Source of the DNA: Paraspadella gotoi
Lineage: Eukaryota; Animalia; Chaetognatha
NCBI GenBank assembly: GCA_051294375.1
Contig: CM119265.1
Coordinates: 6,953,489 to 7,017,488, forward strand
Reading direction: 5' to 3'
DNA length: 64,000 nucleotides
A program made the position numbers and the translations under genes. The notes beneath the pieces are model-generated. The model was not told where the DNA came from. It saw nothing but the letters and a program-made list of their open reading frames with translations, and searched no databases. Positions 3,548 to 63,770 of this stretch are shown here, piece after piece. Within the stretch, counting starts at the first letter, position 1. Each line of letters opens with the position of its first letter.

Positions 3548-6500
3548 GTCGGTTACGTCGTCCGCTTTGACGATCACACGACTCCAGGACAAACTTGCAT
3601 CAAATACATGACGGATGGGATGCTCCTGCGCGAAGCTATTCTCGACCCGTTGCTAAAGAAGTATTCAGTTGTGGTCCTCGATGAGGCTCACGAACGCACC
3701 GTGCAGACTGACGTCTTATTCGGGGTCGTCAAGGAGGCGCAAAAAGCCAGGTTGGACTCGAATATTTTTAGTCAGATCTGCTTCTCAGCAGATCCCGACT
3801 CTATAATCCACTTTGTCGGTCTGCACCCTAAATCTTGTTGGTCATTCACTTATATCATGTCAGAACATCGAATTATGATAAATTATGCAAAAAAATGACC
3901 ATCCGTGTCTTTCCGTCCGTCCCCCTTTAGAAAAAAACTCCTTTTACTCGTGATTGGATGGGTGGATTGGAATGAAATTTTGTGTGTGGGTAGGAAAGTG
4001 TGTGATTGAGCTGGATATAGTTTCAATTGAATCGTACAAGTGGAAATGAGTTTAAATGAAAACAACCAAAGTCAAATTGACTTGAATTTTTTAGCCGTAT
4101 CTGCTTATCAGCATACTCCGAATCGATAATCCACTTTGTTCCGTCGGTCTGCCCCCTCAATCTTGTCGGGCATTCACTTAAATCATGTCAGAACATCAAA
4201 TTATGAAAAATTATGCAAAAAAGTCTGTCCATCCATCCATGTCTGTGTCCATCTAGCCGTCGCCCCTTAGCAAAAAACTCCAATTACTCATGATTGGATG
4301 AATGGATTGGAATGAAATTTTGTGTGTGGTTAGGAAAGTGTGTGATTGAGCTGGATATAAAGTTTTGATGGAATCGTGCGAGAGGAAATGAGTTGAAATG
4401 GAAAAAACAAGTCACATTTACTATCTTTTTTATTAATTTTGACATATAATTACTCGAATTGTAATCATAATAATAATAATTATATGGATAGATTGAGATA
4501 AAATTTTGTGTGTGGATAGGAAAGGTGTGATTGAGCAGGATGTAATGTTTCGATAGAGTGGAACTGAGTTTGCATAAAAAAAAATAAAAGTTAAATCTAC
4601 TTGAATTTTTAATATTTATGCTTATTCATAAATGTTTTAATTAATTAGTTAAGGTGAAAAAAATGATTCGAGTTGAAAAAAAATTATTTGTACTTAATTT
4701 GTATTTATTTCTATAATAGTAAGTTCAGTTTAATCCATTGAAAGCGATTTACATGTATTGGCACAGCCATTGGTTTGGTATGGTACAATTTGTTATTATT
4801 AGTTAGGATCACAAATTGAAAGAATTATCGTAGGGAGATCCGACATTGTTTGTTCAAACTTGTTTCATTAATTTTGATTTTTGATAGTAACCTCTGGCGA
4901 GATCACTATACTTTTTTTTTTTTTAGAAAGAAAAACTCGACTCTGAAGCCGTTGCATGTTGTTGTTATGTCGGCCACTATGGACGTGGATCATTTTTCCA
5001 ATTACTTTGACTCCGCGCCAGTGCTTTACGTCGAGGGTCGGCAGCACAAGGTCGACGTGAGCTACGCCATCGAGACGCAGACCGATTACGTACATGCTTC
5101 GCTGGGTGAGTTCGAGAGTGGAGTCCTTTCGATTACGAAGTTGAATTTACTATTTTTTACCTTTATCGATAGTCACCCTTTTTCAACTTCACCGTGAAAA
5201 GCCGTTGGATGAGGCAATTCTGCTCTTCCTTACGGGACAAGAAGAGATTGAATCCTTTGTCGCCGCCGCCAAAGCCCTGGTCCACGATCCAACCAACGGG
5301 TAAGGCGAAAATTCATTTCTTTAATTTCTAAAACAGCCCGCTGTTCATTTTTAACGGAAATCGGCCTTATTTATCTTTCATTTATGATTTATTTTTTCAT
5401 AACCAGTCTTCCCCGAATGGACGTAATGCCGTTGTACGCCTCTCTTCCTCAACACGCCCAACTACGGGCTTTCGCCAGGTCCGCTCCGAATTGTCGCAAA
5501 GTCGTGGTGTCGACGAACGTGGCCGAAACTTCCGTCACCATCGAGGGGATCCAACACGTGGTGGACACGGGAAAAGTCAAATCAAAATCCTTCAATCCTA
5601 AATCCGGCCTCGATCTGCTCAAAGTTCAGAACATTTCTCAAGCTCAGGCCTGGCAAAGGACCGGACGTGCAGGACGGGAATCAAGGTGAGTGATATTGAT
5701 CTGGGATGTGGTACGATTGTTTGCGTTTTTTCGTTGATTTTTAGTCGCTTCCAACAATATATTTATTTTTCATTTTTATATCCTCTGGGTCTTTTTCTCG
5801 CCAGCCCGTCTTGGACGTAGATAATCATTTAGTATTGCTTCTTTGTGCCGTTGTCGTCCTCGTTATGCTGTTTTAACATTGAAAATAGCTTAAGTGTGTA
5901 ACCATAGGAAGCTAAAAATTTAGATATGGCTTCTCATCATTGAGGTCTTTTAAATTGTTATGTTTCATATTCCTCCACTCATTTGTTTGTTTTATTTATA
6001 AAACAAATTTTATATATATAGTTCAGCTCTGTAGCGGCTGTCCAGGGGCTGTCCAGCTCTATCGCTCTTTTAATTATATGTTGCTCTCTCTTTTTTTTTT
6101 CATCGCTGCTTCTTCTGATTCGTCTAGAAACGAGTTGAGCTCTGCAGCGGGTGTCCAACTTCTCTCTTTTTTTTTTATCTTTCTCTCTCTCTCTCTCTCT
6201 TTTTTTTTCTCTCTCTTTTTTTTTCTTTGTCTTTTTTTTCTTTCTCTCTTTTTTCTCTTTCTCTCTCATTCTCTCTCTCTCATACATGTATTTTAGGTCT
6301 AATCTCTGATATATATAATATTAATATTAAGTTTCAAGGAAATCCAACCATGGATATAGAAAATATTATTTTGCCATAAAAGATTTTTCCTGAATCTGAT
6401 TACCGCTTGAAAATTCTTAGAATTTCGATCGTTAGCTTAGGACTAAGCTCTGACGAAAAAAGCCAGAGGTTTTTTAATATATTCTTTTACCGGCCAATGT

Positions 6501-62400: not shown

Positions 62401-63770
62401 CTTGTCTTCCGGAAAAAAGGTGACGTAGTACAGTCGGAGTGGGAGTGAGTAATGAGAAGAAACTTCGACCATCGACATTCCAATTTCATGGCGTTCTTGT
62501 GTTTTTAGGTCTAGCGATTTTTATCTGGAACGGCGACGACGCCAAGGGCGTGACAAAAGCGAAGGCACGTCTCATGGGAGAGAAGATCAATAAGTTCGAG
62601 CGAAAGGGCGATGCGAGTCTTTACACCATCACTCAGGGAAATGAGCCCGACGAGTTTTGGGAGTTTCTCGGTGGTCAACCTGAGGAAGAAATCGGGCAAG
62701 GCGCCGTTATACCGGACCCGTACCCGCCGAGACTGTACCAGGTTCGAATCTTTTGGTTTTTTTTTTTTTTTTTTTTTTTTTTTTTTTTTTTTTTTTTTTT
62801 TTTTTTTTTGCTTTTTTAAAAAAGTTCTTTTAATTGTCTTTAAGGTTGGCCTCGGCCAAGGATATCTCGAACTCCCCCAAGTTCACGTTCCTCACAACAA
62901 GTTGACGCAAAAAGTGCTGGACTCTAAGAACGTTTACATCCTTGACTGCATCACCGACATTTTTGTCTGGATTGGGAAGAAATCAACGCGGTTCGTCAGA
63001 GCCGCCGCCGTCAAGCTTTCGCAGGAATTGTCCAATATGCTGAACCGTCCTAAAAACGCGCTCATTACCCGGTATGGGTCCAATGGGTTTCAGTGAATTT
63101 TTGCTAAATTAAGTATTATTATTAAATATTAATTCAAATTCAGAGAAATAAATCTTATGCAGCTAAGGTTTCACAATTCAATAAAAACTGCCTTTCTTTT
63201 AGTATTTTGGAAAATACCGAGAGTCAAATATTCAAGTCAAAGTTCGTGAATTGGGACGACGTTTTGGCGGTGGACTATTCAAAGGCGGCCAATGAGCAGC
63301 CGGGAATGGTGCCGCCTACGCCCACCACCGGAGCCAGGGGCGTGGACAAGACGGAAGAGATGAAAAAGAACGTCGCCCCGAAACCAAAGGCCGATTTGTC
63401 GGCACTCTTTTTGCCGAGGTGAGTGAAATGCTTGTAATTCATTCCGGTCTTGAATTAACTGAAGAATTATCATACCTCATGTTAATGAAATAATTAAAAG
63501 TTAGTTAATTGTTAATTTAAATTTAGGCAATCTAAGTAAGTCATTGAAACATTTTAGACAATTGGACACCACCTGCGCCCCAACCTGTTTTTAGTGTGTT
63601 ATTGTTTAATTTAAATCTTGTATAAACTAGACAAACGATCATGTCTGAAGACGAGGCAAACGCTCTCACCGACGAATGGAACGAAGAACTCGATCGAATC
63701 GAATCATTTGTTTTGGAAGGAAGCAAATTCGTTCGCCTGCCCGACGAAGAGTTCGGACTTTTTTATTCCG
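53425..63770 (+). CDS. FLII: Flightless-I (LRR plus gelsolin repeats), 3'-partial, about 17 exons in the window
   Basis: [21 protein letters not shown]-terminus, LRRs, DPLARKKRL linker, gelsolin motifs ([45 protein letters not shown]). Confidence 0.96.
54926..55827 (+). mobile_element. Second, shorter and more degenerate copy of the CRE element, in a FLII intron
   Basis: Closely similar to the 3' 0.9 kb of the 32051-34347 copy; poly(A) tail; AATTATATG on both flanks. Confidence 0.9.
59839..60051. mobile_element. Short copy of MITE family D, in a FLII intron
   Basis: Same TIRs, flanked by TA. Confidence 0.8.

What the first reader, a model, noticed from the sequence alone, without database searches (positions are those of the whole stretch)
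3548..63770. Thirteen co-oriented genes with very short spacers and acceptor sites before the next ATG: a candidate giant animal operon resolved by SL trans-splicing
Seen: all 13 genes are on + (about 1/4096 under independent orientation). Stop-to-ATG gaps are 118 bp (DHX33-TMCO1), 477, 1082, 274 (CBX-SEL1L), 281 (SEL1L-SMARCB1), about 340, 152 (AMMECR1-orphan), 159 (SF3B4-RPL36A), 202 (RPL36A-IgSF9) and 1095. The two large gaps (about 4.0 and 3.6 kb) contain transposon insertions. Polypyrimidine-AG acceptors precede the ATGs (ending at 10195, 11326, 16654, 19833, 22851/22913, 24871, 36590, 47164, 48495/48510, 49051), mostly with no obvious upstream donor. Known: nematodes, tunicates, flatworms and chaetognaths resolve polycistronic transcripts this way, typically for housekeeping genes. 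Inference: gaps of 118-200 bp leave little room for a 3'UTR, promoter and 5'UTR, so there is at least an 8-gene run (DHX33 to the orphan) and a 3-4-gene run (SF3B4 onward), possibly one unit of more than 60 kb.
Basis: partly seen in the sequence, partly recalled or inferred. Interest (0 to 1): 0.8.

Follow-up and report, generated by a model that had tools for sequence, protein, structure and literature searches.

The report
Arrow-worm operon cluster, 13 co-oriented genes
Thirteen same-strand genes of an arrow worm (chaetognath) sit in two tightly packed runs that likely are shared transcripts cut into single messages by spliced-leader addition, an arrangement already described in this phylum; one single 60-kb unit remains untested.

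Summary
Observation confirmed: 13 host genes on +, all listed gaps and AG sites are as stated. The host is a chaetognath (RPL36A 98% identical to Spadella cephaloptera's), a phylum where spliced leaders (SL) and operons are published (half of genes trans-spliced, 18% in operons, longest nine genes). Relatives' cDNA-derived TMCO1 and RPL36A proteins begin with a translated chaetognath SL; the TMCO1 leader joins 43 nt before ATG versus 42 nt for acceptor 10195 here. One run's intron-spliced contigs run unbroken through the DHX33-TMCO1 and TMCO1-SF3B1 spacers and almost unbroken to CBX. Against: no SL-bearing contig was seen at the three acceptors laid, contigs cannot prove one transcript, acceptor 16654 (CBX) is used in cis with donor 16380, FLII has no good acceptor, and the two 3.6-4 kb gaps are only 29% in-window repeat. 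Best reading: an up-to-8-gene operon (DHX33 to orphan) plus a 3-gene operon (SF3B4-RPL36A-IgSF9): a large new member of a known kind, not a record. A single 13-gene unit would beat the 8-9-gene maxima I found but is untested (~10%). The scan noted similar candidate operons on other DNA.

The parts
3548..10119 (+). DEAH-box helicase (DHX33-like), 9 exons in window; its N-terminal exon(s) lie outside the window
10120..10237 (+). 118-nt spacer, unpaired acceptor ending 10195 (score 9.0), no donor; likely SL acceptor for TMCO1
   Evidence: bridged by spliced contig 1; relatives' leader joins 43 nt before ATG vs 42 here
10238..10884 (+). TMCO1, 188 aa, 2 exons
   Evidence: intron confirmed by RNA contig
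10885..11361 (+). 477-nt spacer, acceptor 11326 (score 4.8)
   Evidence: bridged by contig 1
11362..15594 (+). SF3B1, 1383 aa, 2 exons
15595..16676 (+). 1082-nt spacer: AATAAA 15660, strong AG 15873, high-copy repeat near 15950-15987, cis intron 16380-16654 holding a palindromic element 16402-16555
16677..19658 (+). CBX/Polycomb-like chromodomain protein, 971 aa
   Evidence: Chromo; weak CBX7_C below cut-off
19933..22668 (+). SEL1L-like, 873 aa; upstream acceptor 19833 (score 9.0), 175 nt after the CBX stop
22950..24575 (+). SMARCB1, 388 aa; acceptors 22851/22903
24917..36497 (+). AMMECR1 with a predicted ~500-aa N-terminal extension; acceptor 24871; conserved core starts at 29945
   Evidence: start via a 59-nt intron 24925-24983 is inferred
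36650..37609 (+). Orphan 319-aa single-exon ORF with hydrophobic C-terminus; acceptor 36590, 93 nt after the AMMECR1 stop
   Evidence: gene status inferred (weak codon signal)
37610..41664 (.). 4055-nt gap, 29% in-window repeats; candidate operon boundary
41665..43568 (+). Epsin (ENTH), 608 aa; acceptor 41638
43569..47190 (.). 3622-nt gap, 29% in-window repeats; candidate operon boundary
47191..48366 (+). SF3B4, 360 aa; acceptor 47164 (score 9.1)
48526..48922 (+). RPL36A/L44, 106 aa, 159 nt after SF3B4; candidate acceptors 48444/48495/48510
   Evidence: relatives carry SL
49125..52329 (+). Ig/FN3 membrane protein (IgSF9-like), 895 aa; acceptor 49051 (score 11.8), 129 nt after the RPL36A stop
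53425..63770 (+). Flightless-I-like (LRR + gelsolin), runs off the window; 1095-nt gap, no good acceptor

Best explanation
The window is chaetognath DNA with 13 same-strand genes that likely form two spliced-leader-resolved operons, an up-to-eight-gene run (DHX33-TMCO1-SF3B1-CBX-SEL1L-SMARCB1-AMMECR1-orphan) and a three-gene run (SF3B4-RPL36A-IgSF9), with epsin and FLII probably separate. Shown: gene layout, short spacers with acceptor sites, host phylum, spliced RNA contigs crossing the first spacers, leaders on relatives' TMCO1 and RPL36A messages. Inferred: RNA polymerase II reads through a run from an upstream promoter; introns are removed in cis; at each junction the upstream message is cleaved and polyadenylated and a 33-36-nt capped leader is trans-spliced onto the unpaired AG 15-100 nt before the next ATG, with no operon-specific leader. 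The CBX AG at 16654 can also be used in cis by donor 16380; that form carries seven upstream ATGs and is likely a precursor by-product or the product of an internal promoter.
For: Host: full RPL36A is 98% identical over 106 aa to Spadella cephaloptera L44 (P0262, CAL69091.1), other named animals 85% or less on exon 2. Phylum has SL and operons: PMC2481426 section 12, PMC12460157 section 10. Leader on relatives: P0145 (97% to window RPL36A) starts MG-EANFYYFTCL-K, the exact translation of SL3.2 in PMC2481426 Table 3; P0276 and P0373 (86% to window TMCO1, grouping with it at 92/82 support) start with two variant leader peptides on the same 14-aa UTR translation, placing the join 43 nt before ATG versus 42 nt from acceptor 10195. 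Census of hits with an N-terminal extension of 12 aa or more: leader-like in 2 of 2 close TMCO1 and 7 of 13 close RPL36A hits, 0 of 35 and 0 of 27 distant ones (only 9 of those 62 begin MG; pattern written after seeing the sequences). Layout: 6 of 12 junctions have stop-to-acceptor distances under 250 nt even with the 3'UTR included (76, 175, 183-235, 93, 78-144, 129). RNA: contig 1 of run X1 (4756 nt, no other letters) has DHX33, TMCO1 and SF3B1 introns removed yet crosses 10120-10237 and 10885-11361 unbroken; contigs 2 and 4 cover 13340-15959 and 15961-16377.
Against: No leader-bearing contig in X1: depth in the bins holding 10195, 11326 and 16654 equals that of the long contigs alone (212.1/212.1, 141.4/141.4, 81.7/81.7) and no listed loose end lies there (8 loose ends not shown; contigs drop rare variants). 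A contig across two genes does not show a single transcript (tool text); read-through, overlapping UTRs or trace DNA could bridge. Acceptor 16654 is cis-spliced. Only 3 of 12 junctions were laid with RNA, one run of one study. The leader evidence is protein-level, from other species, and SL also goes on non-operon genes (PMC12460157: about half trans-spliced, 18% operonic). The 442- and 1060-nt stop-to-acceptor distances exceed the 250-bp rule of PMC12460157. The orphan's gene status is weak. No synteny in a relative was obtained.
Confidence: 0.68

Rival explanations
1. The genes are SL trans-spliced but the run is broken by internal promoters into pairs and triplets (for example DHX33-TMCO1-SF3B1, CBX-SEL1L-SMARCB1, AMMECR1-orphan), or is a hybrid with both.
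For: SF3B1-CBX spacer is 1082 nt with AATAAA at 15660 and a cis-spliced upstream exon; under the <250-bp rule of PMC12460157 the stop-to-acceptor distances split the run at 442, 1060 and 296 nt; most operons are 2-3 genes in a flatworm (PMC8629364).
Against: Contigs cross the 477-nt spacer unbroken and the 1082-nt spacer with a one-base break at a repeat; 3'UTRs would shorten the 296 and 442 nt distances; the upstream CBX exon has seven ATGs, none in frame, poor for a real 5'UTR.
Confidence: 0.19
2. All 13 genes (and perhaps more beyond both ends) are one transcription unit of more than 60 kb whose intercistronic gaps were inflated by transposons.
For: No strand switch in 60 kb; epsin and SF3B4 also have acceptors 26 nt before ATG; repeats inflate operon spacers in Macrostomum (PMC8629364); DHX33 and FLII run off the window.
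Against: Large gaps are 71% not repeated within the window and hold 10 and 5 polyA-like hexamers; FLII lacks a good acceptor; first genes of operons and single genes also take SL; no RNA was laid there.
Confidence: 0.1
3. Ordinary compact genes with their own promoters; the AGs close 5'UTR introns or are chance matches; no trans-splicing at this locus.
For: Acceptor 16654 is cis-spliced; no leader seen in X1 contigs; AT-rich DNA yields acceptor-like sites (SF3B1 and CBX scores reached by 33% of controls).
Against: No donor can exist in the 118-, 159- and 202-nt spacers above score 2.5; relatives' TMCO1 and RPL36A carry leaders; SL is phylum-wide per PMC2481426.
Confidence: 0.03

Closest known systems
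Chaetognath SL-resolved operons: Paraspadella gotoi (PMC12460157) and the Spadella cephaloptera RPS14-PCNA operon (PMC2481426)
   Same: Same phylum; co-oriented housekeeping genes, short spacers, several leader forms used without operon specificity, ribosomal-protein genes trans-spliced.
   Different: This gene set is not the nine-gene operon described in the text (ribosomal, ubiquitin, proteasome genes); three junctions exceed the 250-bp definition by stop-to-acceptor distance; the run includes intron-rich genes (AMMECR1 11.6 kb) and a receptor-like gene. Whether this cluster is in their operon table could not be read (xlsx too large).
Caenorhabditis elegans SL2 operons (PMC1657053)
   Same: Two to eight genes, housekeeping and RNA-processing bias, about 100-bp spacers.
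   Different: Nematodes use an operon-specific SL2; chaetognaths do not (PMC12460157), and here the same leader variants occur on relatives' TMCO1 and RPL36A.
Macrostomum lignano and tunicate operons (PMC8629364, PMC7986045)
   Same: One leader class for operonic and single genes; up to nine genes (flatworm) or seven (Ciona); repeats inflate spacers in the flatworm.
   Different: Unrelated leader sequence; Ciona operons mostly lack any spacer.

Membership tests
Chaetognath SL-resolved operon | Host is a chaetognath | tested here: met
   RPL36A 98% over 106 aa to Spadella cephaloptera L44, with the shared C-terminal signature; species not determined
Chaetognath SL-resolved operon | Two or more co-oriented genes less than 250 bp apart (PMC12460157 rule) | tested here: met
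   6 of 12 junctions by stop-to-acceptor distance, an upper bound
Chaetognath SL-resolved operon | Unpaired 3' acceptor shortly before the downstream ATG | tested here: met
   11 of 12 starts score 4.8 or more, p=0.0002 vs controls; CBX acceptor also paired in cis; FLII not met
Chaetognath SL-resolved operon | Leader joined at those acceptors in this organism's RNA | tested here: inconclusive
   None in contigs at 3 of 3 acceptors laid, but contigs drop such variants; present on relatives' TMCO1 and RPL36A
Chaetognath SL-resolved operon | Polycistronic precursor crossing the spacers | tested here: inconclusive
Chaetognath SL-resolved operon | No internal promoter | not testable with these tools
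   No CAGE/ATAC data
Chaetognath SL-resolved operon | SL RNA gene elsewhere in the genome, leader absent from the locus | tested here: inconclusive
   Best ungapped match of three published leaders in the window is 23-24 of 33-36 letters; no Rfam match of note; no whole genome held
Nematode SL2-type operon | Operon-specific leader on downstream genes | tested here: inconclusive
   Two leader variants on one TMCO1 UTR and the same variants on RPL36A in relatives; PMC12460157 reports none in chaetognaths; not filed here
Single 13-gene, 60-kb operon | Continuous transcription across the 4.0, 3.6 and 1.1 kb gaps | not tested
   No RNA was laid on these gaps

The most novel reading that the evidence does not exclude
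One RNA polymerase II unit of 13 or more genes and over 60 kb, carrying multi-kilobase introns and transposon-filled intercistronic gaps, the largest animal operon among those I found in print (8-9 genes), in which cis-splicing can remove an inserted element from a spacer by using the same AG as the leader.
Probability: 0.1. Interest if true: 0.55.

Novelty: new member of a known kind. Interest (0 to 1): 0.3.

Why it matters
If right, it adds a large, well-defined operon to a phylum where operons were called only by a 250-bp distance rule; the RNA contigs suggest such a rule would split real units, so chaetognath operons may be longer than the nine genes reported. The cis use of the CBX acceptor is a concrete site to test competition between cis- and trans-splicing. 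It does not change what is known about the mechanism or its distribution.

Tried and rejected
No whole genome is held, so no SL RNA gene search or genome-wide orientation baseline. Run search: no RNA holder listed on record; X1 is marked as a guess, X2 and X3 hold next to none of the words and gave only 3 and 1 short laid records. No X1 contig covered the intronic 9600-9658 stretch: a part without cover, so not counted as evidence against DNA carry-over. RNA was laid only on 9600-16870; the other nine junctions stay open. Metagenome scan with a relative's TMCO1 gave 48 loci, 0 of 48 with the chaetognath-type N-terminus, a leader-like motif or a second window gene: no synteny test. SMARCB1 relatives (15 close ones among 141 hits) had no N-terminal extension of 12 aa or more, so no leader test. 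Rfam: 2 chance-level matches. AMMECR1 extension: 0 hits in 1.84 billion representatives. Orphan: no Pfam family; Atlas gave no answer. P. gotoi operon table not readable; the three readable supplement files hold no SF3B1 or TMCO1. Rejected: IgSF9 start at ATG 49108 (short out-of-frame ORF; 49125 gives a signal peptide); a nematode or tunicate host (RPL36A match, leader type). P0146, P0266 and P0270 among the close RPL36A hits look chimeric but were kept in the 13.
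Full report
Observation. Reading the window and snapping exons to splice sites gave open-frame models for 13 genes, all on +. 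Gaps between stop and next start are 118, 477, 1082, 274, 281, 341, 152, 4055, 3622, 159, 202 and 1095 nt (the 341 is to ATG 24917, which can reach the AMMECR1 frame through a 59-nt intron). All 12 listed sites end in AG. A matrix from the 45 introns in the window scores the best acceptor before each of 12 starts above 135 intronic control windows (p=0.0002); FLII is the exception. The 1/4096 figure is arithmetically right but uncorrected for window choice. The large gaps are each 29% covered by in-window repeats, so 'contain insertions' is true but they are not explained by them on this evidence.

Host. No genome is held. RPL36A exon 2 found unnamed marine relatives at 92-99%; one cluster holds Spadella cephaloptera L44 (P0262), 98% identical over the full 106 aa, whereas other named animals are at 85% or less on exon 2. 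SMARCB1 and TMCO1 likewise have a tight group of unnamed relatives well above named animals. The host is a chaetognath; I did not determine the species.

Leader evidence from relatives. Several cDNA-derived proteins are translated from an MG start upstream of the true Met (that this start comes from a cDNA adapter is my recall). P0145 begins MG-EANFYYFTCL-K, the exact translation of leader SL3.2 in Table 3 of PMC2481426. Near-identical peptides head P0143, P0144, P0151, P0175 and P0274 (RPL36A), another frame heads P0148, and two variants head P0276 and P0373 (TMCO1) on the same UTR translation. For TMCO1 this puts the join 43 nt before ATG; acceptor 10195 lies 42 nt before ATG here. Census among hits with an extension of 12 aa or more: 2 of 2 close TMCO1 and 7 of 13 close RPL36A hits are leader-like, 0 of 35 and 0 of 27 distant ones; the pattern was written after seeing the sequences and only 9 of the 62 distant extensions start MG. 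The TMCO1 tree (24 rows chosen from 110 hits) groups the window protein with these relatives at 92/82, below the starred threshold. So orthologues of two downstream genes are trans-spliced in other arrow worms; that is not proof for this locus, and leaders also go on single genes. No leader copy or known RNA family lies in the window.

RNA of this organism. One run, X1, holds 0.93 of the sampled words. Laid on 9600-16870, it skips introns at GT..AG joints, so it is at least partly RNA. Contig 1 (4756 nt, no other letters) carries spliced DHX33, TMCO1 and SF3B1 and passes unbroken through both spacers; contig 2 runs to 15959, 365 nt past the SF3B1 stop and past AATAAA 15660; contig 4 starts at 15961, after a high-copy repeat, and splices 16380-16654 in cis into CBX. 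This fits a shared precursor, but a contig across genes does not show one transcript. Contigs drop rare variants, so this absence is weak. The cis-spliced CBX form has seven upstream ATGs, none in frame, and removes a palindromic element; I infer it is a precursor by-product or comes from an internal promoter.

Mechanism. Most likely two operons: up to eight genes from DHX33 to the orphan, and SF3B4-RPL36A-IgSF9. Six of 12 junctions leave under 250 nt from stop to acceptor, with no usable donor in the 118-, 159- and 202-nt spacers. Shown: layout, acceptors, phylum, bridging contigs for the first junctions, leaders in relatives. Inferred: single promoter per run, cleavage and leader addition at each junction, boundaries at the 4.0, 3.6 and 1.1 kb gaps. 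Rivals: shorter units with internal promoters (0.19), one 13-gene unit (0.10), no trans-splicing (0.03).

Comparison with print. PMC2481426 (passages; section 12 whole) reports 33-36-nt leaders in two chaetognath species and one two-gene operon. PMC12460157 (passages; section 10 whole; three supplement PDFs searched; the spreadsheet with the operon table unreadable) reports 10,197 of 21,072 genes trans-spliced, 18% in operons defined by gaps under 250 bp, no operon-specific leader, longest nine genes. PMC1657053 (passages): two to eight genes in C. elegans. PMC8629364 (passages): up to nine in Macrostomum, repeats inflate spacers. PMC7986045 (passages): up to seven in Ciona. Searches listed no paper naming this gene cluster, but the unread operon table may hold it. 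An eight-gene run is inside the known range; 13 would exceed the maxima I found. Earlier scan notes on other DNA describe similar unproven candidates; none exist for this genome or look-alike stretches.

Verdict. Real feature, right mechanism class, known in this phylum: new member of a known kind, interest 0.3. The bold reading, one unit of 13 or more genes over 60 kb, is not excluded (about 0.1) and would merit about 0.55.

Noticed in passing
window 24917-29944: AMMECR1 appears to have a ~500-aa in-frame N-terminal extension over five exons; the first 343-codon ORF has no ATG for 993 nt (6.6 expected) and no homologue in 1.84 billion representatives. Could be a long disordered extension or a separate/noncoding leader.
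   Followed up: partly
window 16380-16654: Cis intron in the SF3B1-CBX spacer contains a 155-nt palindromic (MITE-like) element at 16402-16555; a stronger AG (score 10.4) lies at 15873.
   Followed up: partly
window 36650-37609: Orphan 319-aa ORF with a hydrophobic C-terminal segment (tail-anchor-like, by eye); chance of an open frame about 1e-5 per start, weak codon signal, no Pfam family.
   Followed up: partly
window 32211-34386 (-) and 54919-55653 (+): Broken reverse-transcriptase retroelement in an AMMECR1 intron and a related degenerate copy in a FLII intron.
   Followed up: no
window 1-3547: DHX33's N-terminal exon(s) are not in the window, so its first intron exceeds 3.5 kb and the run may extend upstream.
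   Followed up: partly
window 53774-53851: FLII model needs a GC-AG intron.
   Followed up: no
window 11362-15594 and 47191-48366: Two U2 snRNP SF3b subunits (SF3B1, SF3B4) and two chromatin regulators (CBX, SMARCB1) lie in the same cluster.
   Followed up: no
proteins P0143-P0151, P0175, P0274, P0276, P0373: Public protein catalogues from marine cDNA contain false N-terminal extensions that are translated spliced leaders; these can serve as a cheap screen for trans-spliced genes.
   Followed up: partly
window 6860-7200 and 45200-45360: Degenerate short tandem repeats in a DHX33 intron and in the epsin-SF3B4 gap, seen by eye.
   Followed up: no
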